This document shows, one piece after another, positions 1,346 through 43,379 of a stretch of 64,000 nucleotides of DNA. The notes beneath the pieces are model-generated. The model saw only the letters and a program-made list of their open reading frames with translations. It was not told where the DNA came from and did no database searches. Both the position numbers and the translations under genes were made by a program. The stretch lies in contig CAIUVD010000091.1 of the NCBI GenBank assembly GCA_903902515.1, positions 8,199 through 72,198 of the forward strand, written 5' to 3'. Numbering within the stretch: the stretch's first letter is position 1; each line of letters opens with the position of its first letter. The DNA is from an uncultured Planctomycetota bacterium (lineage in GTDB: Bacteria > Planctomycetota > UBA11346).

Positions 1346-2226
1346 TGCGGGTGATGGTTTCGGTGGCGCTCGTTTTGAGGTACTTCCAGCCGTCCGAGGT
1401 CATCATGGCCCTTGAACCCAAGGCGATCAGCACGCCAGCGCTCACCGTTGGACTTGCCGATATAATACCGAGGCCTTCCGCAGTTAGAGTGCTCGCGATA
1501 CAGGCAGAGCCCTGATTCAGCGAGGGCACTGGCATAGCCCTCGACGGACAGCTGGGTCGGAGGAAGTCCATCGAGGATAACCCGAGCATCCCGAGCGACT
1601 GTGTCTTTAACGGTCACCCGATCCCGTTGATGAGCCACATACCCCGTCCGGTCGGTAGGCCGAATACGAGGGCGAGATGGCTGGTGTTCACGATCTGGCA
1701 ATGACGCCAAGCCGAACCTACGTTCGAGATCTCGATCGATGCCGGGGGCGGCACGATGGCTGTGCTTGGCATGGTAGACATAGCCATCTCTGTTAACCCG
1801 AATGGCCACCAGGTGGTCGTGTGGATTGGCCTTCCCGTCTGCCGCCCGATGAGCGACCACCACAAAATCCCATTGGTCGACATCTGGCTTGGGGAAGGGA
1901 TCCAAGCCTCGCTTAACTCGTTGTTTGTTGAGCTTGGCCCAGTCGTCCTCCAGGTGGCTGCGCATGACCTCGCGGGCGACCTCGCCGCGGCGCTCTGCCG
2001 TCAGGCCCGCGTCCATGTCAGCCTGCTGGTAACTGATCGACCAATGCAGCACTGGATGGGAGAGGTGGGCAGCTGCGGCACGACTGGCAGCGAACTCCCG
2101 AGCCAATTCCCGGGCACTCCTCCCGCTCATCGTGCCGCCCACAATTTCCGGGGCCTGATCCTTCCTAAAACAGTAGTCCAGGAGCTGCCTAACACTCTTC
2201 CCGCCTCGATGCTGCTTGGTGATCAT
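1333..2226 (-). CDS. Relaxase / mobilization nuclease (MobA/VirD2-type, Relaxase family)
   Basis: N-term MITKQHRGGKSVRQLLDYCFRK is a typical relaxase start. NPHDHLVAIRVNRDG fits the relaxase HxDxxxHxH-type metal-binding motif. Start chosen at MITKQ (2226), overlapping the mobC stop; the longer ORF in the track (to 2238) is probably an over-extension. Confidence 0.7.
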   Translation of the reverse strand: MITKQHRGGKSVRQLLDYCFRKDQAPEIVGGTMSGRSARELAREFAASRAAAAHLSHPVLHWSISYQQADMDAGLTAERRGEVAREVMRSHLEDDWAKLNKQRVKRGLDPFPKPDVDQWDFVVVAHRAADGKANPHDHLVAIRVNRDGYVYHAKHSHRAAPGIDRDLERRFGLASLPDREHQPSRPRIRPTDRTGYVAHQRDRVTVKDTVARDARVILDGLPPTQLSVEGYASALAESGLCLYREHSNCGRPRYYIGKSNGERWRADRLGFKGHDDLGRLEVPQNERHRNHHPHWDR

Positions 2227-2669
2227 CAGACATCCCAAGATCCCGGTTTTTCTGAAGGATGGGGCTTGGGTTGCAAGACCGCCTCGACCTGCGCAGGGAT
2301 GCCGGCGAATCGGTCCGTGAAGGGTTGGCCAGGATCCTGGCCGACCAGTCTTCGGCGCAGTTGGATCACAGCCCGGGAGGCCTCGCGCACGGTCTCCCAG
2401 TCGGCTTCGTGACCCTGTCCCCCGTTGATGCGCTTGAGGGCCTGATTGAGGTTCGCCCCGATCCCCCTGAGCTGGGCGTTCGTGTCCTGGTCAATCCGGG
2501 CCGGGGGCGGGCTGACCTGGACCTCGAACACAACATCGCGAATCCAGGCACCGAGCGTGGCGTAGCCCGCTATAGCAGCCTTGGTATTAAGGTCGGCCAG
2601 CTCAGCGTCATTGACACCGAAGCCGGCGGTTTTCTTGCGGGGATTTCGGTCACGAACGATACGGGGCAT
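2226..2669 (-). CDS. mobC: MobC-family relaxosome accessory protein
   Basis: 147 aa, LRGIGANLNQALKRIN is the conserved MobC motif; lies immediately upstream of the relaxase gene on the same strand. Confidence 0.7.
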   Translation of the reverse strand: MPRIVRDRNPRKKTAGFGVNDAELADLNTKAAIAGYATLGAWIRDVVFEVQVSPPPARIDQDTNAQLRGIGANLNQALKRINGGQGHEADWETVREASRAVIQLRRRLVGQDPGQPFTDRFAGIPAQVEAVLQPKPHPSEKPGSWDV

Positions 2670-3466: not shown

Positions 3467-4645
3467 TTAAGCCGTCGCCACTACCTCCTGGATTGGCTGC
3501 CGCTGAGCTGCACTTGCCGGCGCTAATTGACGCAAAATGAATGCCCCCCGCGGCCACTCTGAGACCGCGTGACGAAAGATCATTTGCTGACGAGAGTAAC
3601 CTTGGGTCGTCAACAACGACTCATGTCCGGCCCACGCAGCGACCTGGATAGCGTTGACGTCGGCGGCAAGCAGCATGGAAATCCAGGTGTGCCTTGTGCT
3701 ATGAGGAGTTCGGCCTTGAGGATCTACTCCACAGCGCTTCAGATACGACTTAAAGCGGAGTCCATGGCGCTTCCCGTCACAGTCACGGTCGTCGGGATCC
3801 GCCGCAATAAAGCCCGACAGCTTTGCGCGAGCACGGAGGATCTCAGCCAACTCCTCCTGTAGGGGAAGGAACCGCTCTTTGCCTCGTTTCAGTTTATAGA
3901 CCCCTGGTTGATGGCAGACCTCAATAACCTTGGCCTCCCAACGGATATCAGACCAGCGCAGGTGCATCGCCTCACCAATCCGACATCCCGTGTATGCGAG
4001 CAAGGCAAAACGCAGGAAATAGGGATCGGACTCTCGATCGCGTGCCAGAAGAGCCCGCAACTCGTCCACATTGAAGACGGCTTTATTCTTCTGAATCACC
4101 GTTGTCCGCTTGATGCCCGCGATCGGATTGAAGGTCAGACGCCTTGTGTTGATAGCATGGCGGACCACCGAACGAATCTCCTGGAGCCAACGATTGCGCG
4201 TGTGAGCCGTTACGGTCAGCACATCGATCCGGTCTTCGGCAAAAGTCTTGCCCGAATCAAGGAACCGGCGGACCAGGGACGGGAAGATCGGAGACTTCAT
4301 GTCCCTAGCCCCAAGGTCTGCAAGGGCCTGGATCAGGCGCTCGTGCTCGCGGACGTAGGGCTCTGAGCGTTGTGCCGACCTCAAATTTTCGACCAGTTCC
4401 ATTCCGACCGTGCGCCAGTCGGCATCTGTGGCCGAATCCAACCCAGTCGTGAAACGGGCACTGGTCATCTGGCCCCAGCGGCGGGCATCGGCTATCTGCC
4501 CATCTGCAAAGGAACGGCTCACCCGCCGATTGGTCGTGGGATCCCGAACCTGGACTTCATAGCGAGCCCCTTCCCGAATTCCGCGTTTTTTCCAGATGTC
4601 CCGGATAATGACGCCTCGGATTCCTGAGTTGGCGAGCTTGGGCAT
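3467..4645 (-). CDS. int: Tyrosine site-specific integrase (phage integrase family)
   Basis: LLAYTGCRIGE (catalytic Arg box I) and HSTRHTW (box II His-x-x-Arg) plus the C-terminal Tyr region. True start taken as MPKLANSG (4645). The longer ORF in the track runs through the att repeat (DLGLEPRT reads a tRNA T-arm) and is an artefact. Confidence 0.85.
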   Translation of the reverse strand: MPKLANSGIRGVIIRDIWKKRGIREGARYEVQVRDPTTNRRVSRSFADGQIADARRWGQMTSARFTTGLDSATDADWRTVGMELVENLRSAQRSEPYVREHERLIQALADLGARDMKSPIFPSLVRRFLDSGKTFAEDRIDVLTVTAHTRNRWLQEIRSVVRHAINTRRLTFNPIAGIKRTTVIQKNKAVFNVDELRALLARDRESDPYFLRFALLAYTGCRIGEAMHLRWSDIRWEAKVIEVCHQPGVYKLKRGKERFLPLQEELAEILRARAKLSGFIAADPDDRDCDGKRHGLRFKSYLKRCGVDPQGRTPHSTRHTWISMLLAADVNAIQVAAWAGHESLLTTQGYSRQQMIFRHAVSEWPRGAFILRQLAPASAAQRQPIQEVVATA

Positions 4646-4847
4646 GGGATCGTCCTTAAGGGTAGGGCCGTGGATAGGCCGTGGATAGCTCAGTGTCCCA
4701 CCATAGACCACCATCCCGAGGAATTTCTGAGGTCCGCTCGGGATCGCAGCCAGTGGGGGCCGTCGGCCATTATAGCCGACTGAACAATGACTTAACGTCA
4801 TTTTATCGATCCTCAGCGATCCCCTGCAATCCCCCGTGTCGTGAATT

Positions 4848-4890
4848 CTTAATCCCTGGGTCCTAGGTTCGAGTCCTAGATCGCGCACCA
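4848..4890 (+). repeat. att-like repeat copy 1: tRNA 3'-end-like fragment (T-stem CTAGG/CCTAG, T-loop TTCGAGT, 7-nt acceptor 3' strand, discriminator A, CCA). No 5' half present
   Basis: CTTAATCCCTGGGTCCTAGGTTCGAGTCCTAGATCGcgcacca. No complementary acceptor 5' strand (GCGCGAT) within 90 nt upstream, so not a complete tRNA. 34/36 identical to 15164-15199. Confidence 0.6.
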
Positions 4891-4896
4891 TGATAA

Positions 4897-4935
4897 GCCC
4901 CTGCAATCTAAGTGGTTGCAGGGGCTTTGTGTTTT
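4897..4935 (+). terminator. Rho-independent terminator (10-bp perfect stem, 9-nt loop, T-rich tail) immediately after the tRNA-like att copy
   Basis: GCCCCTGCAA tctaagtgg TTGCAGGGGC TTTGTGTTTT. Confidence 0.6.
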
Positions 4936-5144: not shown

Positions 5145-5855
5145 TTATACTTCACCAAGCGCGTTCAGCCGCTTCTTACGATCTTCCCAATCCGGCATTA
5201 ATCGCTGCAATAATCGCCAAAATTTTGGTGAATGGTTGTGTTCTGCGAGATGGCAGAGCTCATGCATCACCACGTAGTCGATGCACTCGCGGGAGGCCTT
5301 GAGGAGCTCCAGATTGAGAATGATCCGACCAGCCGGGGTGCAACTCCCCCAGCGGTGGGTCATGCGACGGACGAGCAGGGTGGGGAGAGGGATGCCTTCC
5401 ACTGCTGCCAGTCGATGGCAAGCCTTCAAGCGCTCTGCGAACACCTCTCCAGCTCGATCTGCATACCACGTCCGCACCAGGTGGCCGAGAACGGCCGGAG
5501 ACGGGTGATCGGGCGTCGTGACGTCCAAATACCCGCGCCGCAGAACAACTCCCGCGATCGGCCCGGGAATGGCCCGCAGGCGGTATTGCCGCCCCAGGTA
5601 ACGGTGCGTTTCGCCCGGGACATACTCCCGGGGAGACTGAAGGGGGTGGAAACACTCAAATTCACGCCACGCCTGCCGGATCCACGCACCCCGCTTGCAG
5701 ACTTTGGCCCGGATGCGCTCCAACGGTGTTCCGATGGGCGCGGTCACCTCGACGGCCAGGTCGGGCCGGACCGTGATGGCGAGGGTCTTGGCCGGTCCAA
5801 ACCGGTAATGGTAGGGGATCTCGGTAGAGCCCCAGACCACGCGATCGGCCAGCAT
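5145..5855 (-). CDS. M48-family / DUF45 (YgjP-like) zinc metallopeptidase of the kind commonly linked to type I R-M loci
   Basis: HELCHLAEHNH (HExxH) near the C-terminus. N-term IPYHYRFGPAKTLAITVRPDLAVEVTAP resembles YgjP/DUF45. Start at MLADRV (5855) overlaps the hsdR stop (5857). Confidence 0.7.
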   Translation of the reverse strand: MLADRVVWGSTEIPYHYRFGPAKTLAITVRPDLAVEVTAPIGTPLERIRAKVCKRGAWIRQAWREFECFHPLQSPREYVPGETHRYLGRQYRLRAIPGPIAGVVLRRGYLDVTTPDHPSPAVLGHLVRTWYADRAGEVFAERLKACHRLAAVEGIPLPTLLVRRMTHRWGSCTPAGRIILNLELLKASRECIDYVVMHELCHLAEHNHSPKFWRLLQRLMPDWEDRKKRLNALGEV

Positions 5856-5856: not shown

Positions 5857-8800
5857 TCAGCCTCCCGCCTGCTTCTTGAGGGTGGACACCACCTGCGCCA
5901 AGAGCTGGTCGATCTCGGCCGTCGTCCAACCGATCCCATGTGCTGAGCGCAGGTCAAACAGGGCATCATCGACCGCATTCTCGACGTCCTTGATCAGGTC
6001 TGGACTGTGGACCCAGTCGACGATGCGAACCTTGGGTTGCACCCGCTCCTCGATCTCCAAGGCGAGCGTTGATGCGAGTTGGCGAAGGTCGACCCCGCTC
6101 CCCACCTCTTGGGCGCGGCTCTTGGTAACCTCAACCTGCTCCAGAGCGGTCCCCATCAGGCCGAAGAACGCTCGTGCAGCCCGGTGGCGTTCACCTTCCA
6201 ACTCAATCGGTAGCTCGTCCGCGTGCCCTTGGCGCACCTGGGCGAGGTAGACCTCAACCTTCTTCAGGTATTCCAGTTCACTGATGCGTTCATGGCGGTA
6301 ATCGTCAATGGTTTGTTGCACCAACTTAGCAAAACGACCGTAAAATTCTTCGTCCTCCCCCATCTTCTCGCGGCAGGTTTTGGCCAGTCGGCTGGCGATG
6401 GTGTCAGCCTTCGACGCCGCGCTCTCGTGGGTCGCCACTTCTTGGTCCATTGCCTTCACGTCGAAGAGGCTGAATTCCGGGGTGATGATCTTCACCTCTG
6501 GAGCCTGAATGTGGTCGTCCAACAGCTTGCGGATTTGTTTTTCGTATTGGCTGTAGTCCACCCGGTCGCCGTACCTGCTCTGGACCGAGGTTCGCAGGCC
6601 GATGAAGCGCTTGAAATCCCGTTTAAAAACCTCCAGCCGTTCGCGCGGCACCAGGGCGTAGACCTGCTCGGATGCCAGGGCCGTGGCTAGGGTCTTTTGG
6701 AAGGTCCGCAGGGTCGCGTAGAAGGACTCTCGGCGATCCTCAGGTGCAAGGTGCCGCTCCATTGCTTCATTGTCGAGCTGGTTGCAGACCTCTTTGAAGA
6801 TCGCCCAGACATCGCTGTGGTGCTGTGGCAGGTCGGCGATCACCGAGCTGACGTCAGTCACCGCCCCGCCCAGGTCGACGTCGTTCTGATCGAAGCCCGC
6901 CAGGGCATCGTATGTCTTCATCGAGGCGTTGAGCTCACCAAGCACCCCACGGTAGTCCACGATCAGGCCATGATCCTTGCCCGGGAACAGCCGGTTCACG
7001 CGTGCGATCGCCTGGAGGATGTTGTGCTCCTTGAGCGGCTTATCGATGTACAGCACGGCATTACGCGGCTCATCGAACCCGGTCAGCAACTTGTCGACCA
7101 CGATCAAGATCTCGACGTCGCTGTCTTCCTGCCCGAAGGCGGCCTTGAGCTGGCGGTTGTAGACATCCTCCGTCTTGAACCGCTTCATCATCTCGGCCCA
7201 GAACTGGCCAACCAGGGATTCATCCTCTTCGACCGCCTCGTCCTCGCCCCGAACATCCGGGGCAGACATGATCACTTCCGCCTGCACGAGGCCGAATTCC
7301 TGCATGAATTTCCGGTAGCGGATGGCGCTGGTGCGGTTGCGTGCGGCGACCTGGCCCTTGAGCCCGCGCCCCTGGAAGTTGGCTTTGAAGTGGGTGCTGA
7401 TGTCGAAGGCGATCAGCTTGATGCGTTGTTCGGCTTCACTCAGCACCTCGCGCCGCGACATCGTGCGCTTGAGGTCTGCCCGCTGCTTCTCGCTCAGGCT
7501 CGTGGTCAATCGCTCGAACCACTGATCCAGGGCCCGCTCGTTCTGCTCCAGCAAGGCCATCCGTCCCTCGTACACGAGGGGTGCCACGGCCTCGTCATCG
7601 ACGGCCTGACGCATGGTGTAGCTGTGGATGAAGCCGCCAAATTTCTGTGCGGTCTGCTTTTCCTTCTTCAGGAGAGGGGTGCCGGTGAAGGCGATGTAGC
7701 ACGCATTGGGGAACACCCGTCGCATCTTGGCGGCAAAGCCCCCATAGTTCGACCGGTGGCCTTCATCGATCATCACGAAGATGTTCGGGCTCTCATCCCG
7801 GGCCTGATTCTTGTCCATGACCGCCGCGAACTTGTTAATGATCGCGGTGATGACGCTGGCCTTGCCCTCGGTGATGAGCTTGGCCAGGTGCTCGCCCGTC
7901 CGTGCCCGTTCCGTGGTTTTGCCGCAGGCCTCAAAGGTTCGCGACAACTGAATGTCGAGGTCGTCGCGGTCGGTAACCAGCACCACACGTGGGTCGGTGA
8001 TGCCAGGGTGCAGGGCGATCGCCTTGGCCAGCATGACCATGGTTAGCGATTTTCCGGACCCCGTCGTGTGCCAGACGACCCCGCCCTCGCGTGCGCCCTC
8101 GTGGAGCGTGGTCACGCGGGCGACCGTCGCCGCCACGGCGAACCACTGCTGGTACCGGGCGACCTTGCGCACCCCAGCATCGAACACCACGGCGTCGCGG
8201 ATGAACGTCACCAAGCGATCTTGGCGCAGCATGGCCCAGAGCGTGCGGTCCTGCTCGGTTGGCAGGCGATCACCGGCCTTGGCCCGTTCCTGCCACCAGA
8301 GCCGCGCCTCACGGTAGGCGTCCACTCGCTTGGAATCGGGAGGCGCGAAGAGCTTGGCCTCGACGTCATCGGGCAGCCGCTGGTTGGCAGAGGCATGGAC
8401 CGCCTGCTCGTGCCGTCCCTCTTCCTTCCAGACGCTCCAGAATTTCAGCGGCGTCCCCACCGTGCCATAGCGGCAGGAATTCACGCTCGTCCCCAGCACC
8501 AGTTGCGCGAATTGGAAGAGGTGGGGGATGTGATCGTCCTTCTGATAGGTCACGACCTGCTTGATGGCCTTCTCGATGGCCTTGTCCCCAACGTCGCCGT
8601 CCTGGTCGCGACGTTTACATTCGATGACCACCACGGGGATGCCGTTGATGAACAGCACCAGATCAGGTCGGCAGGTCTCGTGGGAGCGCGACCGCTCGAC
8701 GGCGAACTCATCGCTGACGTGGTAGACGTTGCGCTCCGGCCGCAGCCAATCGATGAAGTGCACCTGCCGACCCTTGCGGTCGCCCTCCACTTCAACGTCG

Positions 8801-9117
8801 ACGCTCGTCCCCAGGGTGAGCAGGTGGTACACCGCCTCGTTGGTCCGCACCAAGCCGTCATACGGCACCTCGGTCAGTCGACGGATGGCCTCCCCCAGGT
8901 TCACATCCGAGAACGGCAGCGACTGCCCACGAGCCTCCACCCGGTTGTGCTCTGCCAGCCAGGGCTTCAGCACCCCGGTCAACACTACCTGGTCTTGCCG
9001 GCCTCCACGCAGGGCCAAGGCCTCTTCCCGGCTGAGGTACTGCCAGCCCAAGGCGCAGAGCACCTGCACCGCAGGGATCTGGCTGTCGAGATCTTCGAGG
9101 TAGGGCGAGAGCGCCAT
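5857..9117 (-). CDS. hsdR: Type I restriction enzyme R subunit
   Basis: 1086 aa, SF2 helicase motifs TTGSGKSLTMV (Walker A) and FVMIDEGHRS (DEAH-like); size and architecture typical of HsdR. Confidence 0.9.
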   Translation of the reverse strand: MALSPYLEDLDSQIPAVQVLCALGWQYLSREEALALRGGRQDQVVLTGVLKPWLAEHNRVEARGQSLPFSDVNLGEAIRRLTEVPYDGLVRTNEAVYHLLTLGTSVDVEVEGDRKGRQVHFIDWLRPERNVYHVSDEFAVERSRSHETCRPDLVLFINGIPVVVIECKRRDQDGDVGDKAIEKAIKQVVTYQKDDHIPHLFQFAQLVLGTSVNSCRYGTVGTPLKFWSVWKEEGRHEQAVHASANQRLPDDVEAKLFAPPDSKRVDAYREARLWWQERAKAGDRLPTEQDRTLWAMLRQDRLVTFIRDAVVFDAGVRKVARYQQWFAVAATVARVTTLHEGAREGGVVWHTTGSGKSLTMVMLAKAIALHPGITDPRVVLVTDRDDLDIQLSRTFEACGKTTERARTGEHLAKLITEGKASVITAIINKFAAVMDKNQARDESPNIFVMIDEGHRSNYGGFAAKMRRVFPNACYIAFTGTPLLKKEKQTAQKFGGFIHSYTMRQAVDDEAVAPLVYEGRMALLEQNERALDQWFERLTTSLSEKQRADLKRTMSRREVLSEAEQRIKLIAFDISTHFKANFQGRGLKGQVAARNRTSAIRYRKFMQEFGLVQAEVIMSAPDVRGEDEAVEEDESLVGQFWAEMMKRFKTEDVYNRQLKAAFGQEDSDVEILIVVDKLLTGFDEPRNAVLYIDKPLKEHNILQAIARVNRLFPGKDHGLIVDYRGVLGELNASMKTYDALAGFDQNDVDLGGAVTDVSSVIADLPQHHSDVWAIFKEVCNQLDNEAMERHLAPEDRRESFYATLRTFQKTLATALASEQVYALVPRERLEVFKRDFKRFIGLRTSVQSRYGDRVDYSQYEKQIRKLLDDHIQAPEVKIITPEFSLFDVKAMDQEVATHESAASKADTIASRLAKTCREKMGEDEEFYGRFAKLVQQTIDDYRHERISELEYLKKVEVYLAQVRQGHADELPIELEGERHRAARAFFGLMGTALEQVEVTKSRAQEVGSGVDLRQLASTLALEIEERVQPKVRIVDWVHSPDLIKDVENAVDDALFDLRSAHGIGWTTAEIDQLLAQVVSTLKKQAGG

Positions 9118-9118: not shown

Positions 9119-10045
9119 TCAGGTCGTCCAGAAGGAGTGCGTACGCCAGTTGGCAGGCAGGCCCATGGCCACCTGCCAGCGCGGGTGGCTGTCCATCTCG
9201 GTCAAAAGCGCCTGTACGCGACCCGACCAATGGCTTCCTGCCTGGTGATGCCGCAGCAGGTAGCGCAGGATCAGCAACACGCCGTACACGTGATGTCGAT
9301 CCGGGAGGGCCGGTGGAATCCAGCACCGCTCTTCGGTCGTCGGGCTGCGGGGGTTGCGCGGTTCGGGCATGGTGGGCTTGATCGCCAAATCCCGATTCCA
9401 CAGCCGCCCATGGTGGGCACAGAGGTTGCGCACGTATGACAGGGTATGCAGCCAGTCACCAAAGACACGGTGGTGCACGCGATACGATCCGGCAACTGCT
9501 CGCTTATCGTCATGGTGCAGGCCACGAAACAGCACCGACAGCGACCCGAGCGACATGACCTCAGACGCCACCCACAGGGGGAGCGACGGGAAGCCGTCGT
9601 AGGTGTTTTCGTAATGGAGGATGAAGGTCTCCTCCGAACGCTCAGCCTCCCGGTGCAGCTTGTCGATCCACTCAGGGTGACGGAACTGCGGGTGGAAGTT
9701 CACGGAGGCTTCGTGCCCGTAGGGGCCGTAGGCGTGCACCAAATGGTAGGTCACCGTGGTGCGCACGGCAATCTCGACCCGTTCGATTGCATCCATGACC
9801 AGCAGGCGGAGACGGCGGTCAAACTCATAGAGCCGCTCCGCCTCTGCCAGGCTTGCGGTGTCTTCGAAGCGATCGCCAGGAACCAGCTTAAACAGCAGCC
9901 AGTAGGCACTGAGGCGGTAATAGCTCACGCGGCTGAGCAATGCCTCGGCCCCTCGCCGGTTGCCCACGTTCAGCCCACGGGCCTCCAGCAGGTCCACCTG
10001 CTGGGCGAAGGTCAGGGCGGTTTTGTTGTAGGGCTTGGTGCTCAT
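9119..10045 (-). CDS. Abi-like protein (Abi_2 / AbiD-AbiF family abortive-infection protein)
   Basis: 308 aa, N-terminal LSRVSYYRLSAYW motif characteristic of the Abi_2 family; ends 2 nt before hsdR start. Confidence 0.7.
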   Translation of the reverse strand: MSTKPYNKTALTFAQQVDLLEARGLNVGNRRGAEALLSRVSYYRLSAYWLLFKLVPGDRFEDTASLAEAERLYEFDRRLRLLVMDAIERVEIAVRTTVTYHLVHAYGPYGHEASVNFHPQFRHPEWIDKLHREAERSEETFILHYENTYDGFPSLPLWVASEVMSLGSLSVLFRGLHHDDKRAVAGSYRVHHRVFGDWLHTLSYVRNLCAHHGRLWNRDLAIKPTMPEPRNPRSPTTEERCWIPPALPDRHHVYGVLLILRYLLRHHQAGSHWSGRVQALLTEMDSHPRWQVAMGLPANWRTHSFWTT

Positions 10046-10068
10046 GCCAGGTTTCCCGGCGTGCGCGT

Positions 10069-10126
10069 AAAAACAAAAAAGCCGCCAAGGTTACGCATGC
10101 CCCTTGCGGGGTATAGGCGTGGCGGC
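10069..10126 (-). terminator. Candidate rho-independent terminator between hsdS and abi (minus strand): GC stem GCCGCCA/TGGCGGC with inner CCCC-gcaa-GGGG hairpin, then U-run
   Basis: Plus-strand AAAAACAAAAAA (10069-10080) is the minus-strand T-tract directly 3' of the stem 10081-10087/10120-10126. Confidence 0.45.
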
Positions 10127-10328
10127 TGTGTTGGAGGTACGATGCCAGATGCGTGGCTGTCGCGCAACATGGCAAAAAACAACACGCTCTCCCGTATCCG
10201 TGTCTCGATCTGCGACACAAGGAGCTCATCTATGAAGACAGTAATCATGACAGCCCCTGCCTTGGCCAGCCCCCAGGGGCGTGGATCGTAGAAGTTGCCA
10301 AGACAGGCGGACATGGCCATGGGTGCTC

Positions 10329-11597
10329 CTAGGCCGCCTGGACCTTCACGCGGCGTTTGCCGGTGAGGAGCTGTTGCATGAGGCCCTTTTTCTGGGTGCG
10401 AAAAGCGGAGAGCAATCGTTCGAGCAACTCGATTTCCCGATCGACGATGTCAAATAGATCGGCGATGCGCCGTTGTTCGTCTAACTCCGGCAGGGGGATA
10501 GGCAACTGTGCCAGGTCATCAAAATAGATGCGGATGCGCACGCCGCCGGCGCCTGCGGTGTCCATGAATGAAGACCATGCATCCGAACGCCGAAATGCGT
10601 TGAAATAGCGATGGTCGATTGCCTCATCACGGCAGCGGAACACCACATAATCCGGTGAAACGAGCGCATCTTCCTGCCCCAGCCATTGGCAGATAGAGCC
10701 AATGTTGATACGCATTGGATTATAGGCGAACCAGTGATTTTTGACGATCAGGTAGCGGGATAAATCGTCGGCCATGACATGCTCCTTCATGGGGATCATG
10801 CCTTCTGCTTTGTTCACAGCCCTGACGGATTCCGAACCAAGGCGCCCATTATTTCGGACGGAGCTGGCCTCGGCGACGTCGCCGATAGTGCGCTTCCGCC
10901 ACGGCTTGGTAAACCCAGGAAACCTCCGCTTCCCCGTCAGCAACTGCTGCATGAGGCCTTGGCGACGTTTACGCGAGGCCTTCAGGAGATTTTCCAGGTA
11001 AAGCGAGGCAGTCTCCCAGTGCTCAAGAATTCGCGAGATTTCTTGTTGCTCGGAAAAAGAAGGAATTGGGATCCTGAGCGCTAGGAGGTCATCCTGCGTA
11101 ATATTTTTCATAGAATCGCTCGTCCCGGTTGCCTGGGATGAGAGCCGGTGACGAAGTGTCGGCAATTGCAGTAGGTGGGAAAGCCACTTGGTGGAATACT
11201 TGACCCCAGAGCGAGGCTTTAACTGCCAAAGTTTATCGGGAAGATATGTCTTTGGACAGTCCTCTCGCACTAACGCACTAGCGCCGACGAGATCAGGGGT
11301 ATTACAACGGCTGACGATAAGGTGACCCTTGAGCACAGGCTCGCTTACTCGTGCAACATCCTCGGGGATAACGACCTTGGCGGCATTTTTTTTGAACACG
11401 CCGTAAGACACTGCGCTGATCTTCAGGACGGTTATTTCACCTGTGCTTGCTGGCCGATCTTCACCATTAACGCTCACTCCAGAGTCTAGAGAGCCAACAA
11501 GATCAGAAACCTTGCCAGCTTTCCAGTCTGTAGGAACGAGTCCAAGATGCGGCACTTCCTTGAAAGCTGCTGTCACAGCCCCAACTCCTTGAGGCAC
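10329..11597 (-). CDS. hsdS: Type I R-M specificity subunit, two target-recognition domains
   Basis: 422 aa with the conserved inter-TRD repeats RQGLMQQLLTGKRR and KKGLMQQLLTGKRR. Confidence 0.85.
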   Translation of the reverse strand: MPQGVGAVTAAFKEVPHLGLVPTDWKAGKVSDLVGSLDSGVSVNGEDRPASTGEITVLKISAVSYGVFKKNAAKVVIPEDVARVSEPVLKGHLIVSRCNTPDLVGASALVREDCPKTYLPDKLWQLKPRSGVKYSTKWLSHLLQLPTLRHRLSSQATGTSDSMKNITQDDLLALRIPIPSFSEQQEISRILEHWETASLYLENLLKASRKRRQGLMQQLLTGKRRFPGFTKPWRKRTIGDVAEASSVRNNGRLGSESVRAVNKAEGMIPMKEHVMADDLSRYLIVKNHWFAYNPMRINIGSICQWLGQEDALVSPDYVVFRCRDEAIDHRYFNAFRRSDAWSSFMDTAGAGGVRIRIYFDDLAQLPIPLPELDEQRRIADLFDIVDREIELLERLLSAFRTQKKGLMQQLLTGKRRVKVQAA

Positions 11598-13072
11598 CCA
11601 GCCATCTCCGCCCGGACCTTAACCAATTCCGCCTCTAAATCAGCGATTTCCTTACCTACCTTGGCCAAATCCACCTCTTCCTCAGCCTCGAATGTGTCCA
11701 CATACCGGGGAATATTGAGGTTGTAATCGTTCTCGGCGATCTCTTCCAGCGTCGCCTTGTAGGCGTACTTCTCGACCGTCTTGCGGATGCGGTAGGTCTC
11801 AACGACCTTCTGGACCTCGACGTTGACCCGCAGGTAATTCTGGTTTTTCCCATCCTGGAACTCGCGGGAGGCGTCGATGAACAGCACATCCTTCCGGCTG
11901 CCACGATCACGGCGGAAGATCAGGATGGCCGCTGGGATTCCGGTACCGAAGAACAGGTTCGGAGGCAGGCCGATCACCGCATCCAGGAGGTTCTCCTCGA
12001 TCAGCTTTTGCCGAATCGCGCCTTCGGCCCCGCCGCGGAACAGCACGCCATGGGGCACGACCACACCAACCCGTCCGGTGTCCTTCACCGTGGTCTCGAT
12101 CATATGGCTAATGAAGGCGTAGTCGCCCTTGCTCTTGGGGGGCACGCCCCGGTGCCAGCGGTTGAATCGCTTGGCCTCATCGTCCGCCTTGTCCGCCCCC
12201 CACTTGTCGAGGCTGAACGGCGGATTGGCCACCACGACGTCGAAGCGCATGAGTTGGTCGTTGGCCAAGAGCTGGGGCTCCAGCAGGGTGTCCCCGGCCT
12301 CGATGCGGGCATTCGCCACATCGTGCAAGAACATGTTCATCATGCACAACGCCCAGGTCGTGCGGTTGTTCTCCTGACCCCAGATCGAGATGTTGTCGGA
12401 ATTAGCCTCGCGGGCGCAGCGCAGCAGCAGCGAGCCCGAGCCGCACGCCGGGTCGCAGATGCGCTCGCCAGCCTTGGGTGCCAGCAGCTTGGCCAGGAGG
12501 ATCGAGACCTCCTTCGGGGTGTAGAATTCCCCGGCCTTTTTACCGGCGTCGTCGGCGAACTTGCCGATGAGGAATTCGTAGGAGTCGCCGATGACGTCGT
12601 TGCCCGCCAGTCGCGAGGGACGCAGGTCGAGCTTGTTGAAGTCCTCCAGGAGGTTTTTTAGCACCTTGTTGCGATTCTTGGTCGATCCCAGGCGGGATTC
12701 GCTGTTGAAGTCAACGTTGCGGAAGACGTCCTTGAGTTTGACTTTGTTGGCCAGTTCGATGGCTTCTAAGGCCTTGTTGATCGTCTCGCCAACGCTGGCC
12801 CCTTCGCGCAGGGCATAGACCTCGGCAAAGCTGGATTTCTCGGGCAGAACGAAGCGCTCACGGTCCATCTTGCGACGGATGCGCTCCTCATCGCCCTTGA
12901 ACTCCTTGGCGAGCTCGTCGCGGCGCTCGCGCCACACGTCACTAATATACTTCACGAACAGCATCGTGAGCACGTAGTCCTTGTAGTCGGCCGCATCGAT
13001 CTGGCCGCGAAAGGAGTCGCAGGCCTGCCAGAGGATACGATTGACGTCGTCTTGGGTGGTGGTGTCGGTCAT
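11573..13072 (-). CDS. hsdM: Type I R-M N6-adenine DNA methyltransferase subunit
   Basis: DPACGSGSLL (SAM motif I) and VVANPPF (motif IV NPPF). Confidence 0.9.
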   Translation of the reverse strand: MTDTTTQDDVNRILWQACDSFRGQIDAADYKDYVLTMLFVKYISDVWRERRDELAKEFKGDEERIRRKMDRERFVLPEKSSFAEVYALREGASVGETINKALEAIELANKVKLKDVFRNVDFNSESRLGSTKNRNKVLKNLLEDFNKLDLRPSRLAGNDVIGDSYEFLIGKFADDAGKKAGEFYTPKEVSILLAKLLAPKAGERICDPACGSGSLLLRCAREANSDNISIWGQENNRTTWALCMMNMFLHDVANARIEAGDTLLEPQLLANDQLMRFDVVVANPPFSLDKWGADKADDEAKRFNRWHRGVPPKSKGDYAFISHMIETTVKDTGRVGVVVPHGVLFRGGAEGAIRQKLIEENLLDAVIGLPPNLFFGTGIPAAILIFRRDRGSRKDVLFIDASREFQDGKNQNYLRVNVEVQKVVETYRIRKTVEKYAYKATLEEIAENDYNLNIPRYVDTFEAEEEVDLAKVGKEIADLEAELVKVRAEMAGCLKELGL

Positions 13073-13084
13073 GTTCGGCTCGAT

Positions 13085-13680
13085 TTATCGTGAAGTGTTA
13101 GTGAGGAAGGAGAGGCCAATGCTGCGGTTGCGCAGGGCAACGGCCTGGGTCATGCGCCCCAAGATCTCTTGCTCCTTTTGCTGGAGCTCGCTGAGATGGG
13201 CGATGTACCCCTGCTGGTGCATCGGTGGCAAGGGAATGCAGATGGCCTCGAATAGGGCCCGTTGAACTATGGGAGTACCGGCTCCCGTGCGAGCCTGGCT
13301 GATGGCGGCTTGCGTCGGCGCCTGGTTCAGAAACCAGGCCAGGTATTCCGGATCAACAAGGCCCGGCCGAGGCCTGAGCACGAAGAAAGCCGCCGTAGGC
13401 ACCGCGTTAATGGCACATTGGTCAATTCTGGCCGCGCGGTTTTTTTCTCCGCGTGACATGAAGAGGACATCACCCCCCATCACGCAGTACCCCTCGGCCC
13501 GTTCAGGAAGGTCCATCCGCGTGTCATGGTCTTCCCCGATGGAAACGGGTCGACCTGACTCGTGGACGTGGCGTGGTTGAATGACCAGAAATCGGCCGTT
13601 GTCCTGGTGCTGGACCGCCCCTGGGTTGGAAAACCCAGGGGTGATTTCAGCCGCCTCATCGAGACGGGCATGGTTCATGT
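13085..13680 (-). CDS. Solitary half HsdS (single target-recognition domain plus conserved C-terminal helical region)
   Basis: About 199 aa from MNHARLDEAAEITPGF. TRD-like GDVLFMSRGEKNRAARIDQ...AVPTAAFFVLRP, then IPLPPMHQQGYIAHLSELQQKEQEIL typical of HsdS conserved regions. 13 nt upstream of hsdM. Confidence 0.6.
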
Positions 13681-14075
13681 GATGTCTTTCACCCATACTT
13701 TCAGGGGATTGTAGGGGGTTCCGATGGGCCAGTTCACCAGGTACCGACGACTGGTCGCCGGAGACTCGCCAATCCAAACGATGGCCGCTTCCGGCTGAAA
13801 AGGAGGCGGGTGGTTCTCCCACGCGAGGCGTGCAGTGATCTTGGCTCCCTCTTCGCTGTTCGGGGAGGTAAAGACCCCGTCGGCCCAGGCAAAATCCAGG
13901 TCACGGTACCGGACGAGCTGAACGCCGGGAACGCCCATAGCCGCCACGATGTATTGATCGACTGCCGTGGCGGACTTTACCCAAATCACTCGCCCTGCCC
14001 GCCAGCCGCGCTGGCGGGCAGGGTGCCACTCGGTGTTGTTCGCATGCGTCGCATAGAGCTCTTGGAAGGTCATCA
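13675..14075 (-). CDS. Hypothetical Trp-rich protein, no recognisable domain
   Basis: About 136 aa from MMTFQELYATHANNTEWHPARQRGW; stop overlaps the half-hsdS start; begins about 8 nt after the GIY-YIG gene stop. Confidence 0.4.
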
Positions 14076-14083
14076 TGGCAGCC

Positions 14084-14412
14084 TCACCCGTGCGCCGTCT
14101 GGTTAATCGGCGGGGCGAGGGTGCCCACCAGGTCTGCCTCGACCTGCCTCCGGCGGTCTTCGTGGGGAATTCCGATAGCCGCGATGTGGGTCGCACGCTG
14201 ACGCCGGAACGCCATGGCATGGTGGTGATTGTCAAAACGGGAGCTGAGGTCGCCCGTCTGGCCAATGTAGAGCACCGTCCAGCGTGCTCCTTCATCGCGC
14301 ATGATCGCATAGACGCCGCCGACGGCAGGGAGAGGGGTTCCGAAAGGGAACACCGTGAGGTGATAAGAGGTGCCCGACCGAGCGGTCAGGGTCACTGTGG
14401 GATGCATAGCCA
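14084..14412 (-). CDS. Small GIY-YIG nuclease-domain protein (YhbQ/UPF0213-like size)
   Basis: About 109 aa from MAMHPTVTL. GGVYAIMRDEGARWTVLYIGQTGDLSSRFDNHHH matches the GIY-x10-YIG-x-T-x-L-x2-R-x3-H pattern; GGAGAG RBS-like 8 nt upstream. Confidence 0.5.
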
Positions 14413-14530
14413 TGAAAGGCTCTCCTGGGAAAGGAGCCTGACTGGACCTCAGAGCCAAATCCGCTACAGTGGTGTTGCAAGACGTCACCTGCGGCTTGGT
14501 CGTCGGCGAGCCCGACTCCAGGTTTTAAGG

Positions 14531-14574
14531 AACCGAAAAACCCAGCCCCTGCCAGGGGGTTGGGTTTTTCGGTT
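14531..14574. repeat. Near-perfect 19-bp stem hairpin (AACCGAAAAACCCAGCCCC tgcca GGGGGTTGGGTTTTTCGGTT) at the edge of an AT-rich tract
   Basis: Arms differ at one position; T-rich tails on both sides suggest a bidirectional terminator. Confidence 0.4.
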
Positions 14575-15163
14575 TATGGCCGACAGAGAGAACGCCTCGC
14601 TGTCGCCATAATGAGTAGTGTAAGCACTCCTAATTTTTTTCAAGTTTTTTTCCGGTGTCTCCATTACTTGATATTGTCGTCGGCAGTCGCGAGGGGCCTA
14701 GGTGACAGATCTGTGCATTTTGTATATACAATTTACACATGATGTATACCTGAGGTCCGCAGCGCCACTGATGGCGTTTGTTATTATGTAAGTAATATCA
14801 TTGGGCCTCATGCATTACTCGCTGTAGTAAACCATTTAAGGCTGGGCGCAGCCGAAAGGGGAACTGGGGCTGGCCCTCTGTATCCCCTTGCTGACTCACA
14901 AGCGCCCGAGGTGTCCGCTCAGCCGTCTCCGAGGGCTGCGGGAGGGCGGCTAGGTCCGACCTTCAGCAGCCTCATTTGTCCAAGGTCCGAATTCCTAATG
15001 ATCCGTGATTTCTAGGCAGGTCAGCTCCGCCGGCCCAGCGAGAAGGCTCACCAAGCAAGTGCCTGTCGGCAATCCCTGCACCCCCCAGCTCGAGAACGTA
15101 TCTTTTTCCCGTTCGCTTTGGGTGCTGGAGTGGCTGGTGCTGTGCCCACTAATCAATTTGTCC

Positions 15164-15199
15164 CTTAATCCCTGAGCCCTAGGTTCGAGTCCTAGATCG
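15164..15199 (+). repeat. att-like repeat copy 2 (34/36 identical to 4848-4883), followed by divergent 3' sequence ATCTCCA
   Basis: CTTAATCCCTGAGCCCTAGGTTCGAGTCCTAGATCG; no complete tRNA can be folded around it. Confidence 0.6.
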
Positions 15200-15431
15200 A
15201 TCTCCATTATAAACATCTGAAAATCAATGTTTTGCAGTGGATTTTTGCCTCTGGGCTCTCGACCCTTGCTGGCCAAATTAAGATGCCTGTTGGGCGGCAG
15301 AACAACTCCAAACCTGACAGCCCCCTTAGCAGAGATGGCCTTACGGCCATCCCTGCTGGGGGCATTGTCCTCGTCCGATGGACCTCACCACCGCAAGGCC
15401 GGTGGAGCCCTCGGCAGAAGAAGACCAGGCT

Positions 15432-41633: not shown

Positions 41634-42146
41634 ATGTCCATGTCTGATCAAGCCGCCCCCGAATCCGCCCCCGAGTTCATCACCATTCCCGCCGCCGAGT
41701 TCGAGACCGCCAAGCGCGAAGCCGCCGAGTGGAAGGACCGCTGCCTACGCAACCAGGCGGAGTTCGAAAACGTCCGCAAGCGCCTGCGCAAGGAGGCCGA
41801 TGAGGCCGCCACCCGGGCCACCGCCCGGGCCGTGAAGCCGTTTTTGAATGAAATCGACAACCTGGCCCGGGCGGTCGAGGTCGCCACGCCGGAAGCCTTT
41901 GCCGACTTCGCCCAGGGCGTGACCCTGATCCGCGAAAACCTCAACGGCGCCCTGCGGGGCTTGGGGATCGAACCCGTCACCTGCGAGGGCGCCTTCGACC
42001 CCGCCATTCACGAAGTCATCGCCGAAACCGAGCACGCCGAGGTCCCTAAGGGCCACATCCTGACGGTCCACCGCAGCGGCTACCGCCTCAAGGACCAGCT
42101 GGTCCGCACCGCCCAAGTGGTGGTGGCCAAACCGCCCGCCGCCTGA
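41634..42146 (+). CDS. grpE: Nucleotide exchange factor GrpE
   Basis: 170 aa, GrpE C-terminal motifs (HEVIAET, TVHRSGYRLKDQLVRTAQV). Confidence 0.85.
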   Translation: MSMSDQAAPESAPEFITIPAAEFETAKREAAEWKDRCLRNQAEFENVRKRLRKEADEAATRATARAVKPFLNEIDNLARAVEVATPEAFADFAQGVTLIRENLNGALRGLGIEPVTCEGAFDPAIHEVIAETEHAEVPKGHILTVHRSGYRLKDQLVRTAQVVVAKPPAA

Positions 42147-43340: not shown

Positions 43341-43379
43341 GACTTGATGACTTCCCCCTCCCCAGCGTAGTCTGCCCCC

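What the first reader, a model, noticed from the sequence alone, without database searches (positions are those of the whole stretch)
10329..13680. Two S subunits for one HsdM: possible dual specificity (half-S homodimer plus full S)
A full two-TRD hsdS lies downstream and a solitary one-TRD hsdS upstream of the single hsdM. Half-S subunits can dimerise into a functional S that reads a symmetric target. The locus could therefore methylate and restrict two site classes. There is no invertase or recombinase and no inverted hsdS repeats, so this is not a shufflon.
Basis: inference. Interest (0 to 1): 0.5.

Follow-up and report, generated by a model that had tools for sequence, protein, structure and literature searches.

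The report
Conserved short S protein, likely operon controller
The extra one-domain "specificity" gene in front of this restriction-modification operon is intact and belongs to a large conserved family, and comparative evidence suggests it reads a palindromic operator in the operon's own promoter rather than adding a second restriction specificity.

Summary
On the minus strand lie a one-TRD S-like gene (13678..13085, 197 aa), hsdM (13072..11573) and a two-TRD hsdS (11576..10329). They sit in the operon GIY-YIG(109 aa)-ORF133-S_short-hsdM-hsdS_long-ORF92-AbiD-hsdR-YgjP.

The short S is not a remnant. At least 381 50%-identity clusters of about 200-aa relatives exist, and none of the best 150 is two-TRD length. 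It sits directly upstream of hsdM in several phyla and on many plasmids.

Its TRD is inherited with HsdM (Spearman 0.76). The long-S TRDs are shuffled (14-34% identity between near-identical systems). That is not the behaviour of a variable specificity module.

In most lineages examined, the promoter in front of the operon carries two copies of a bipartite palindrome. The half-site follows the S_short clade: GAGTA-N7-TACTC here, CTGTA-N7/8-TACAG, CATCA-N7-TGATG, and TGTAG-N10-CTACA in staphylococci.

My best reading (about 0.5) is that an S_short homodimer reads this operator and controls the operon, possibly together with HsdM.

So does a methylase-assembly role, as proposed for the staphylococcal hsdRSMS system (about 0.15).

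All functional claims are inferred from sequence.

The parts
13085..13678 (-). S_short: one-TRD S-like protein of 197 aa (TRD residues 1-152, C-terminal helix 153-196)
   Evidence: ORF and ATGA overlap with the upstream ORF. PADLOC Specificity_I E=6.5e-19. 76 homologues, nearly all about 200 aa. 381 clusters at E<=1e-30, with the top 150 all 126-298 aa. AF2 pLDDT 95. Foldseek best match Esub1, then S subunits.
11573..13072 (-). hsdM, type I m6A methyltransferase subunit, 499 aa
   Evidence: Pfam N6_Mtase 3e-105 and HsdM_N 2e-29. TIGR00497. PDB relatives 7vru, 3lkd, and EcoR124 M 7bst at 1.9e-72. 45% identical to HsdM of the S. xylosus hsdRSMS system.
10329..11576 (-). hsdS_long: canonical two-TRD specificity subunit, 415 aa (TRD1-CR1-TRD2-CR2)
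   Evidence: Two Methylase_S stretches. Full-length PADLOC Specificity_I 7e-71. Internal CR1/CR2 repeat. TRDs shuffled between related loci.
14084..14413 (-). 109-aa stand-alone GIY-YIG nuclease-domain protein, first gene of the operon in this clade
   Evidence: Weak Pfam GIY-YIG hit in all 15 aligned members, best 5.5e-5. Invariant Y35, Y49, G51, R59, H63, H64, E92, N104. AF2 pLDDT 84. Foldseek top 9 matches are the UvrC GIY-YIG domain. Syntenic in most related loci.
13675..14076 (-). ORF133, unknown function, translationally coupled to S_short; seen only in the window's closest lineage
   Evidence: No Pfam, NCBIfam or PADLOC hit. Absent from distant loci. A 134- or 154-aa gene sits at the same position in L049 and L048; their homology to ORF133 was not tested.
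14613..14629 (-). Box 2: bipartite palindrome GAGTG-CTTACAC-TACTC, with a -10-like TACACT inside the spacer; candidate S_short operator
   Evidence: The only match with at most 1 mismatch to GAGTA-N7-TACTC in the 64-kb window. At the homologous position in related loci.
14653..14669 (-). Box 1, degenerate in this window: AAGTA-ATGGAGA-CACCG, upstream of a -35-like TTGAAA (14638-14643)
   Evidence: Alignment of upstream regions and sequence. A good palindrome in L014, L018, L020 and L024.
14531..14574 (-). Conserved hairpin plus T-run (intrinsic-terminator-like) between the promoter and the GIY-YIG gene
   Evidence: Inverted repeat I6. Terminator scan. Conserved in 16 loci, with both-side changes in 7 of 9 pairs.
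9119..10045 (-). AbiD / Abi_2 abortive-infection gene inserted between hsdS_long and hsdR
   Evidence: Pfam Abi_2 5e-53. PADLOC AbiD 9e-72. This slot varies between loci.
5857..9117 (-). hsdR, 1086 aa
   Evidence: HSDR_N, SWI2_SNF2, ResIII and T1R_D3-like domains. TIGR00348 3e-134.
5145..5855 (-). YgjP-like (M48/SprT-like) metallopeptidase, last gene of the operon
   Evidence: Pfam YgjP-like 4e-58. Syntenic after hsdR in related loci.
4848..4931 (+). tRNA 3'-half-like direct repeat, left copy; the right copy is at 15164-15247. Together they bracket the whole operon.
   Evidence: 84-nt direct repeat, 76% identical. No tRNA called at either copy. Integrase 3467-4906 abuts the left copy.

Best explanation
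The upstream one-TRD gene encodes 'S_short'. This is a conserved, dedicated subunit of a widespread type I operon layout: S_short-hsdM-hsdS_long-[variable insert]-hsdR-YgjP.

S_short most likely dimerises through its 44-residue C-terminal helix. The resulting two-fold symmetric reader recognises a bipartite palindrome.

That target is not a strain-variable restriction site. It is a lineage-conserved operator in the operon's own promoter: here GAGT(A/G)-N7-(T/C)ACTC, with box 2 at 14613-14629 and a -10-like hexamer inside its spacer.

S_short would therefore act as the operon's controller. It would work like the C proteins of type II systems, or like RptR of other type I islands. It might act alone, or by guiding HsdM to methylate the operator.

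The strain's restriction and modification specificity is set by the two-TRD hsdS_long.

**Shown:** gene integrity, fold, family size, synteny, the conservation pattern, and the existence, position and clade-dependence of the boxes.

**Inferred:** dimerisation, binding of S_short to the boxes, and the regulatory outcome.
For: 1. **Dedicated family.** All 76 homologues are 125-271 aa. A profile search gives 381 clusters at E<=1e-30, and the best 150 are all 126-298 aa.
2. **Conserved position.** The gene lies directly upstream of hsdM, often overlapping it. This holds in Gammaproteobacteria, Gallionella, Zetaproteobacteria, Gemmatimonadota, Anaerolineales and Nitrospirota MAGs, and on plasmids of cultured bacteria.
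3. **Conservation pattern.**
   - S_short TRD identity tracks HsdM identity (Spearman 0.76). Pairs with HsdM 86-93% identical have S_short TRDs 76-93% identical.
   - hsdS_long TRDs stay at 14-34% in those pairs, with sporadic swaps at 59-81%.
   - In S_short the TRD is more conserved than the helix (48% against 31%). In S_long it is the reverse.
4. **Fold.** The predicted fold best matches Esub1, a crystallographic homodimer of a natural half-S whose authors call its build typical of a repressor (PMC11754733).
5. **Promoter boxes.** Two copies of a bipartite palindrome sit in the promoter, one upstream of the -35 and one over or after the -10.
   - Found in 12 of 14 promoters of loci without the GIY-YIG gene, against 4.4% of 5368 background windows.
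   - Absent from the rest of those loci, with one exception.
6. **Half-site follows the S_short clade.**
   - GAGTA-N7 in this clade.
   - CTGTA-N7/8 in alphaproteobacterial plasmids.
   - CATCA, CATGA or CACCA-N7 in Proteus, Sphaerotilus, Methylobacter, Gluconobacter and Komagataeibacter.
   - TGTAG-N10 in S. xylosus.
7. **Only candidate reader.** Of the genes common to these operons (S_short, hsdM, hsdS_long, hsdR), S_short is the only conserved sequence reader; hsdS_long is too variable.
8. **Site geometry.** 3-5 bp half-sites with a 7-8 bp spacer match what S-subunit TRDs read (PMC12707154). Engineered half-S dimers do read palindromes (PMC6158711).
9. **Precedent.** A first-gene autorepressor exists in the same operon layout, rptR-hsdM-hsdS-[insert]-hsdR-M48 (PMC12255303).
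Against: - No binding or expression data exist.
- In this window only box 2 is good (1 mismatch). Box 1 is degenerate, the -35/-10 spacing is poor, and the promoter scan found nothing.
- The link between box type and S_short clade is confounded by descent, because promoter and gene are inherited together.
- In this clade a conserved terminator-like hairpin lies between the promoter and the first gene. The promoter might therefore mainly drive a short RNA.
- Two plasmid loci (L036, L043) lack a clear box pair.
- In S. xylosus, removing hsdS_short from a construct under a foreign promoter weakened or abolished motif methylation (PMC10030836). That points to a role beyond transcription, unless it reflects lost translational coupling; no protein levels were measured.
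- The S_short helix aligns end to end with both CRs of hsdS_long at 22-26% identity. HsdM binding is therefore not excluded.
Confidence: 0.5

Rival explanations
1. Dual specificity. Two S_short molecules replace S_long in an M2S-type complex. The locus then methylates and, with HsdR, restricts a second, palindromic site class in addition to the asymmetric S_long site.
For: - S_short has TRD plus one CR-like helix, and the helix aligns end to end with CR1 and CR2 of S_long.
- Truncated or engineered half-S proteins form active palindrome-reading type I enzymes (PMC6158711; the EcoR124I, EcoDXXI and NgoAV cases cited in PMC10030836).
- S_short is co-transcribed with hsdM and often translationally coupled to it.
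- The promoter boxes could simply be instances of such a site.
- A site specified at 10 bp would escape SMRT motif calling, so the staphylococcal methylome does not exclude this.
Against: - The S_short TRD is conserved and co-inherited, not shuffled. This TRD type is not found in a two-TRD S among the sequences examined.
- The candidate sites are concentrated as a pair in the promoter and absent from the rest of most loci.
- Only one bipartite asymmetric motif was seen when the staphylococcal hsdS_short-M-S_long genes were expressed in E. coli (PMC10030836).
- Esub1 showed no convincing HsdM binding (PMC11754733).
- The S_short helix lacks the GLMQQLLTGKRR motif shared by both CRs of S_long.
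Confidence: 0.2
2. Assembly or fidelity cofactor. S_short has no DNA target of its own. It stabilises or proof-reads the M2-S_long methylase, as proposed for staphylococcal hsdS_short.
For: - In S. xylosus, only constructs with hsdS_short gave complete methylation of the expected motif. hsdM-hsdS_long alone gave degenerate, low-fraction motifs or none (PMC10030836).
- The layout is the same here: short conserved S, then hsdM, then an overlapping long S.
- The two HsdM proteins are 45% identical.
Against: - S_short here and the staphylococcal protein share only generic TRD similarity: hhalign 93% probability over 97 columns at 19% identity.
- The most conserved parts of S_short are TRD loops rich in Arg, Asn, Thr and Gln (MSRGxRN, RTGAGTPIVQR). 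That conservation would be unexplained without a ligand.
- This reading does not explain the clade-specific promoter palindromes, which are also present in front of the staphylococcal gene.
- The staphylococcal effect could come from lost translational coupling, since the hsdS_short stop abuts the hsdM ATG.
Confidence: 0.15
3. Inactive remnant of a former hsdS, with no function.
For: Pfam Methylase_S scores below its cut-off.
Against: - Open, full-length and identical on 11 contigs.
- A large family of the same length with strongly conserved motifs.
- Fixed position across phyla.
- Very confident model.
Confidence: 0.02

Closest known systems
Staphylococcal hsdRSMS type I variant (hsdS_short-hsdM-hsdS_long; Schiffer et al. 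2023, PMC10030836)
   Same: - A short S-like gene of about 190-200 aa with one TRD lies directly upstream of hsdM, and a long two-TRD hsdS overlaps the hsdM end.
- The short S is conserved throughout, while the long S has variable TRDs.
- The short S is never found as part of a long S.
- The system is carried on mobile elements.
- HsdM is 45% identical.
- Two copies of a bipartite palindrome lie in front of the short S.
   Different: - Gene order is R-S-M-S there. Here it is (GIY-YIG-ORF133-)S-M-S-Abi-R-YgjP.
- The two short S proteins share only generic TRD similarity.
- Box spacing is N10 there and N7 here.
- There is no GIY-YIG gene, no leader hairpin and no YgjP gene there.
- A regulatory role was not considered in that paper.
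Esub1 (SpyM3_0890) of Streptococcus pyogenes, a natural half-S homodimer (PDB 8VSQ/8VSR; PMC11754733)
   Same: Best structural match to the S_short model. It has one TRD-like head plus one dimerisation helix. Its authors suggested it is a repressor-like DNA binder rather than an S subunit.
   Different: Esub1 is an orphan, encoded away from hsd genes, and carries an insertion helix bound by phage paratox. Sequence identity is about 20%. S_short here is the gene immediately before hsdM.
RptR, first-gene repressor of type I RM defence islands (PMC12255303), and C proteins of type II systems
   Same: A small protein encoded as the first gene of an hsdM-hsdS-[insert]-hsdR-M48 operon. It is a homodimer with repeated palindromic sites overlapping the -10. 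This is the same logic as proposed here.
   Different: RptR is a 9-kDa all-helical protein that binds 6-bp TAGCTA repeats. C proteins are helix-turn-helix proteins. S_short has an S-subunit TRD fold, and its sites are 17-18-bp bipartite palindromes.
Truncated or engineered half-HsdS enzymes (EcoR124I, EcoDXXI, NgoAV and CC398-1 derivatives; PMC6158711 and references in PMC10030836)
   Same: TRD plus one conserved helix. Dimerisation gives a symmetric S and a palindromic bipartite target.
   Different: Those are halves of a normal long S. They share its TRD and CR and replace it. Here the short S coexists with a complete long S, has its own TRD type not found in any long S examined, and lacks the long S's CR motif.

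Membership tests
Canonical type I R-M system (HsdR, HsdM, HsdS) | HsdM with an N-terminal HsdM domain and an N6-adenine methyltransferase domain | tested here: met
   Pfam HsdM_N 2e-29 and N6_Mtase 3e-105; TIGR00497 1e-93.
Canonical type I R-M system (HsdR, HsdM, HsdS) | HsdS with two TRDs separated by two conserved helical regions | tested here: met
   Two Methylase_S stretches, a full-length PADLOC profile match, and the CR1/CR2 repeat.
Canonical type I R-M system (HsdR, HsdM, HsdS) | HsdR with a nuclease N-terminus and an SF2 motor | tested here: met
   HSDR_N, SWI2_SNF2, ResIII and T1R_D3-like domains; TIGR00348 3e-134.
Canonical type I R-M system (HsdR, HsdM, HsdS) | Bipartite asymmetric m6A methylation and ATP-dependent restriction | not testable with these tools
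   Needs a methylome and restriction assays.
hsdS_short-containing type I variant (hsdRSMS-like) | A one-TRD S-like gene of about 190-200 aa immediately upstream of hsdM, with a long hsdS overlapping the hsdM 3' end | tested here: met
   13678..13085, then hsdM 12 nt later; hsdS_long overlaps hsdM by 4 nt.
hsdS_short-containing type I variant (hsdRSMS-like) | Short S conserved along its whole length while the long-S TRDs vary | tested here: met
   Pairwise analysis of 16 loci.
hsdS_short-containing type I variant (hsdRSMS-like) | The short-S TRD never occurs inside a long S | tested here: met
   Homologue lengths 125-271 aa and 126-298 aa for the top 150 of 381 strong matches.
hsdS_short-containing type I variant (hsdRSMS-like) | Sequence homology of the short S to staphylococcal hsdS_short beyond the common TRD fold | tested here: inconclusive
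   BLASTP 20% identity, E=0.02. hhalign 93% probability, but only over 97 generic TRD columns.
hsdS_short-containing type I variant (hsdRSMS-like) | Gene order hsdR-hsdS_short-hsdM-hsdS_long | tested here: not met
   Here hsdR lies downstream, after hsdS_long and AbiD. The S-M-S core is shared.
hsdS_short-containing type I variant (hsdRSMS-like) | Short S required for correct methylation | not testable with these tools
   Known only from experiment in S. xylosus (PMC10030836).
Phase-variable hsdS shufflon | Inverted repeats shared by alternative hsdS genes or fragments, in opposed orientation | tested here: not met
   No such repeats, and both S genes are on the same strand.
Phase-variable hsdS shufflon | A dedicated recombinase acting on hsdS | tested here: not met
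   The only recombinase is a tyrosine integrase at 3467-4906. It lies at the island border next to a tRNA-fragment repeat and mobilisation genes.
Half-S specificity subunit forming a second M2S2-type enzyme | TRD plus one CR-like helix able to dimerise | tested here: met
   AF2 model. Structural match to the Esub1 dimer subunit. Dimerisation itself was not tested.
Half-S specificity subunit forming a second M2S2-type enzyme | CR matching the CRs of the cognate long S, giving the same HsdM interface | tested here: inconclusive
   Gapless end-to-end alignment at 22-26% identity, but the shared GLMQQLLTGKRR motif is absent.
Half-S specificity subunit forming a second M2S2-type enzyme | S_short-dependent palindromic m6A motif in the genome | not testable with these tools
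   Needs SMRT or nanopore data from the host.
R-M controller proteins (C proteins, RptR): works-like comparison | First gene of the operon, with repeated palindromic operators overlapping the core promoter | tested here: met
   In this window one good box overlaps a -10-like hexamer.
R-M controller proteins (C proteins, RptR): works-like comparison | Helix-turn-helix (C protein) or RptR helical fold | tested here: not met
   The fold is an S-subunit TRD plus coiled-coil helix. It is not a member of those families.

The most novel reading that the evidence does not exclude
S_short is an HsdS-derived transcription factor and epigenetic sensor. As a homodimer it binds the paired palindromic boxes of its own promoter. 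Together with HsdM it methylates them, so the methylation state of the operator reports whether the host genome is already protected, and this times the expression of the restriction operon after transfer on its mobile element. The co-inherited GIY-YIG mini-nuclease and the leader terminator would add further layers in this clade. This would be the first S-subunit-fold regulator of a restriction system, and a general control mechanism for a large, unrecognised class of type I systems.
Probability: 0.2. Interest if true: 0.8.

Novelty: new variant of a known kind. Interest (0 to 1): 0.6.

Why it matters
Type I systems are usually described as R, M and one S, with control mainly after translation. 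Transcriptional control by a first-gene repressor was shown only in 2025 (RptR).

This locus belongs to a large and widely spread group with a fourth, conserved S-like subunit. At least 381 protein clusters exist, across several phyla and on many plasmids. The role of that subunit is unknown, and it has been noticed experimentally only in staphylococci.

If the short S reads the paired palindromes in its own promoter, three things follow:
- The DNA-reading module of type I enzymes has been recruited as a regulator.
- It would explain why this gene is conserved while the true specificity gene is shuffled.
- It gives a directly testable model, with defined 17-bp sites, for how such operons establish themselves in new hosts.

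It also matters for annotation. Two 'restriction endonuclease subunit S' genes around one hsdM should not be read as two specificities.

Tried and rejected
- **Remnant or frameshift.** Rejected: intact, conserved and confidently folded.
- **Shufflon.** Rejected: no inverted repeats and same-strand genes. The integrase belongs to the island border.
- **Direct orthology with staphylococcal hsdS_short.** Could not be shown; only generic TRD similarity was found.
- **Known RNA family for the conserved upstream region.** None: Rfam gave only sub-threshold noise.
- **Sigma-70 promoter scan in the window.** No hit. The promoter assignment rests on alignment with relatives that have TTGACA-17-TATAAT-like elements.
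- **Window-only statistics for the box.** Not significant at 2 or fewer mismatches: 4 found against 5.3 expected. The support comes from position and cross-locus conservation.
- **LexA box as an explanation for CTGTA-N7-TACAG.** Considered and set aside from general knowledge. The spacing is CTGT-N9-ACAG rather than N8, and the hosts are Alphaproteobacteria, whose LexA box differs.
- **Another linked regulator as the box reader.** Fic/HTH genes or other HTH genes lie upstream in some loci. They are absent in others and in the window.
- **Complex modelling.** S_short-HsdM or S_short2 models were not possible, because only single-chain prediction was available.
- **Host organism.** Could not be named from the cluster look-up.

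Full report
**What is there**

The finding's coordinates cover three co-oriented minus-strand genes.
- A short S-like ORF. Its real start is ATG 13678, overlapping the stop of the preceding ORF as ATGA; its stop is at 13085; it is 197 aa.
- hsdM (13072..11573, 499 aa).
- A two-TRD hsdS (11576..10329, 415 aa, overlapping the hsdM stop).

The assignments of hsdM, hsdS and hsdR are unambiguous.

The short ORF scores below the Pfam Methylase_S cut-off, 18.3 against 22 bits. It matches a 208-position PADLOC Specificity_I profile at E=6.5e-19. It models at pLDDT 95 as one TRD plus a single 44-residue helix. Its best structural match is Esub1, a natural half-S homodimer, followed by true S subunits.

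The full operon, as also called on an identical metagenome contig, runs in this order:
- a 109-aa GIY-YIG protein (14413..14084)
- ORF133 (14076..13675)
- S_short
- hsdM
- hsdS_long
- ORF92
- AbiD/Abi_2 (10045..9119)
- hsdR (9117..5857)
- a YgjP-like metallopeptidase (5855..5145)

There are no hsdS inverted repeats. A tyrosine integrase does lie at 3467-4906. It sits at the border of the element, next to one copy of an 84-nt tRNA-3'-half direct repeat. The other copy is at 15164-15247, so the two copies bracket the whole operon. 'No recombinase' needs correcting, and 'not a shufflon' stands.

**The short S is a family, not an accident**

A database search found 76 relatives, nearly all 195-233 aa. 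A profile search over 1.84 billion cluster representatives found 381 at E<=1e-30. The best 150 are all 126-298 aa, so none is two-TRD length.

Related loci come from Gammaproteobacteria, Gallionella, Zetaproteobacteria, Gemmatimonadota, Anaerolineales and Nitrospirota MAGs. They keep the order GIY-YIG, S_short, hsdM, [gap], hsdS_long, [variable insert], hsdR, YgjP.

More distant relatives, about 30% identical, sit on 68 plasmids of cultured bacteria, including Proteus, Providencia, Methylobacter, Gluconobacter 621H, Acetobacter, Novosphingobium and Mesorhizobium. They show the same S_short-M-S_long-(insert)-R-SprT/YgjP order but no GIY-YIG gene.

**It does not behave like a specificity module**

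I compared 16 loci pairwise.
- S_short TRD identity tracks HsdM identity (Spearman 0.76). Pairs with HsdM 86-93% identical have S_short TRDs 76-93% identical.
- In the same pairs the TRDs of hsdS_long are 14-34% identical, with sporadic values of 59-81%. This is the classic signature of TRD shuffling (Spearman 0.00 and 0.38).
- In S_short the TRD (mean 48%) is more conserved than the helix (31%). In hsdS_long the conserved regions (36-39%) exceed the TRDs (20-22%).

This is the pattern reported for hsdS_short of the staphylococcal hsdRSMS system (PMC10030836). There, only one asymmetric bipartite motif was seen when hsdS_short, hsdM and hsdS_long were expressed together, and methylation became partial or absent without hsdS_short.

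The window's HsdM is 45% identical to that system's HsdM. The two short S proteins share only generic TRD similarity. I therefore treat the staphylococcal system as the closest known analogue, not as a proven orthologue.

**A candidate target: paired palindromes in the operon's own promoter**

I aligned the 330 nt upstream of the first gene in 15 loci. The alignment shows a conserved non-coding block containing, in order:
- box 1, about GAGTA-N7-TACTC
- TTGACA
- box 2, whose 7-nt spacer holds the -10
- a hairpin with a T-run
- a leader
- the ribosome-binding site

Locus L014 has lost the GIY-YIG gene. It keeps box 1, TTGACA and a perfect GAGTACTAGTGTTACTC. The window's close relative L050 has no GIY-YIG gene and no leader. 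Its layout is simply box 1, TTGATA, box 2 (GAGTGATACAAACGCTC), then the S_short ATG.

In the more distant plasmid clades the architecture is the same but the half-site differs:
- CATCA-N7-TGATG, twice, in Proteus and Sphaerotilus
- GCATY...RATGC, twice, in Methylobacter
- CTGTA-N7 or N8-TACAG, twice, in seven alphaproteobacterial plasmids
- CACCA-N7-TGGTG in Komagataeibacter
- TGTAG-N10-CTACA, twice, in front of the S. xylosus hsdS_short

A blind test for two same-half-site palindromes 30-100 nt apart was positive in 12 of 14 of these promoters, against 4.4% of 5368 background windows. With one exception, the clade-specific palindrome occurs nowhere else in those loci. The half-site class follows the S_short clade.

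Of the genes shared by these operons, only S_short is both a sequence reader and conserved on the same scale as the boxes. hsdS_long is far too variable.

The geometry, 3-5 bp half-sites with a 7-8 bp spacer, is what S-subunit TRDs read (PMC12707154). Half-S dimers are known to read palindromes (PMC6158711). A first-gene autorepressor has just been shown for the same operon layout (RptR, PMC12255303).

**Caveats for this window**

- Only box 2 (14613-14629, GAGTGCTTACACTACTC) is good. It is the single match with 1 mismatch or fewer in 64 kb.
- Box 1 (14653-14669) is degenerate.
- The -35/-10 spacing is poor, and the consensus scan finds no promoter.
- The link between box type and clade is confounded by common descent.
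- The conserved terminator-like hairpin (14531-14574; both-side changes in 7 of 9 pairs) lies between the promoter and the first gene. It is unexplained and could be an attenuator or the end of a small RNA.

**Most likely mechanism and rivals**

*Best reading (about 0.5).* S_short dimerises through its helix and reads the operator, controlling the operon. hsdS_long sets the restriction specificity. Whether HsdM joins S_short at the operator, and so methylates it, is open.

The staphylococcal methylome does not exclude this, because a 10-bp-specified site is too rare for motif calling. The conserved, never-shuffled TRD and the promoter-restricted sites argue against a defensive specificity.

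*Rival 2 (about 0.15).* S_short is an assembly or fidelity cofactor of the methylase, as proposed for staphylococci. This leaves the conserved DNA-loop-like motifs and the boxes unexplained. The staphylococcal phenotype could instead reflect lost translational coupling, because the hsdS_short stop abuts the hsdM ATG.

*Rival 3 (about 0.02).* The ORF is a remnant. The data contradict this.

**Accessory parts**

The 109-aa first gene is a minimal GIY-YIG nuclease domain.
- Its catalytic set is invariant: Y35, Y49, R59, H63/H64, E92, N104.
- All 15 aligned members give weak Pfam GIY-YIG hits.
- Its model has pLDDT 84.
- Its nine best structural matches are all the UvrC GIY-YIG domain.

It co-diverges with HsdM (Spearman 0.71). 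It is absent from the plasmid clades, so S_short does not depend on it. Its role is unknown.

**Novelty and verdict**

The layout 'short conserved S - M - long S' has been described once, in staphylococci. Here it appears in an unrelated lineage with a different gene order, an added GIY-YIG gene and a leader hairpin. It is part of a much larger unannotated group.

The paired, clade-specific promoter palindromes, and the inference that an S-fold protein is the operon's controller, were not found in the literature searched.

I rate this as a new variant of a known kind, interest about 0.6. All functional steps are inferred and are directly testable.

Noticed in passing
window 4848-4931 and 15164-15247 (+ strand); integrase 3467-4906 (-); NikA/MobC 2226-2669 (-); relaxase 1333-2238 (-): An 84-nt direct repeat (76% identical) looks like the 3' half of a tRNA, and its two copies bracket the whole hsd operon and its promoter. 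ARAGORN calls no tRNA at either copy. A tyrosine integrase abuts the left copy, followed by mobilisation genes. This suggests tandem integrative mobilisable elements, with the RM operon as a 10.3-kb att-flanked cargo.
   Followed up: partly
window 14531-14574 (- strand) and homologous positions in L007-L031, L048, L049: A conserved hairpin plus T-run lies between the conserved promoter and boxes and the first gene of the operon. 7 of its 9 pairs show both-side changes across 16 loci, and no Rfam family matches. It could be an attenuator or the terminator of a short leader RNA.
   Followed up: partly
window 14084-14413 (- strand): A stand-alone 109-aa GIY-YIG nuclease domain with an intact catalytic set is the first gene of the operon and is co-inherited with HsdM in this clade. 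L025 appears to carry a different GIY-YIG-like small ORF in the same place (read by eye from the upstream sequence). Function unknown.
   Followed up: partly
window 13675-14076 (- strand): ORF133 is translationally coupled to S_short (ATGA overlap). It has no family hit and was found by tblastn only in copies of the window's own locus. L048 and L049 carry a 154- or 134-aa gene at the same position, but homology was not tested.
   Followed up: no
window 9119-10045 (- strand) and the same slot in related loci: The slot between hsdS_long and hsdR is a hot spot for inserted defence genes. Here it holds AbiD. Elsewhere it holds a Ser/Thr kinase, a PDDEXK nuclease, a TIGR04141 protein or an AAA ATPase. 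This resembles the prrC and darTG insertions known in other type I operons.
   Followed up: no
L007, L008, L009 and L010 (upstream, divergent); L036 and L044 (upstream): A Fic-family gene, sometimes with an HTH domain, often lies just upstream of the S_short operon in Gemmatimonadota and on some plasmids. There is none in the window.
   Followed up: no
L008 (GCA_963851595.1) and L006, L028: Some relatives carry decayed versions of the operon, with fragmented hsdM or hsdR by tblastn, while S_short and the GIY-YIG gene are still called as open genes.
   Followed up: no
window 42000-58000: G+C rises to 70-73% in this stretch, against 55-66% around the hsd island (10001-12000 is 55%). This is consistent with the island being foreign to the host genome.
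   Followed up: no
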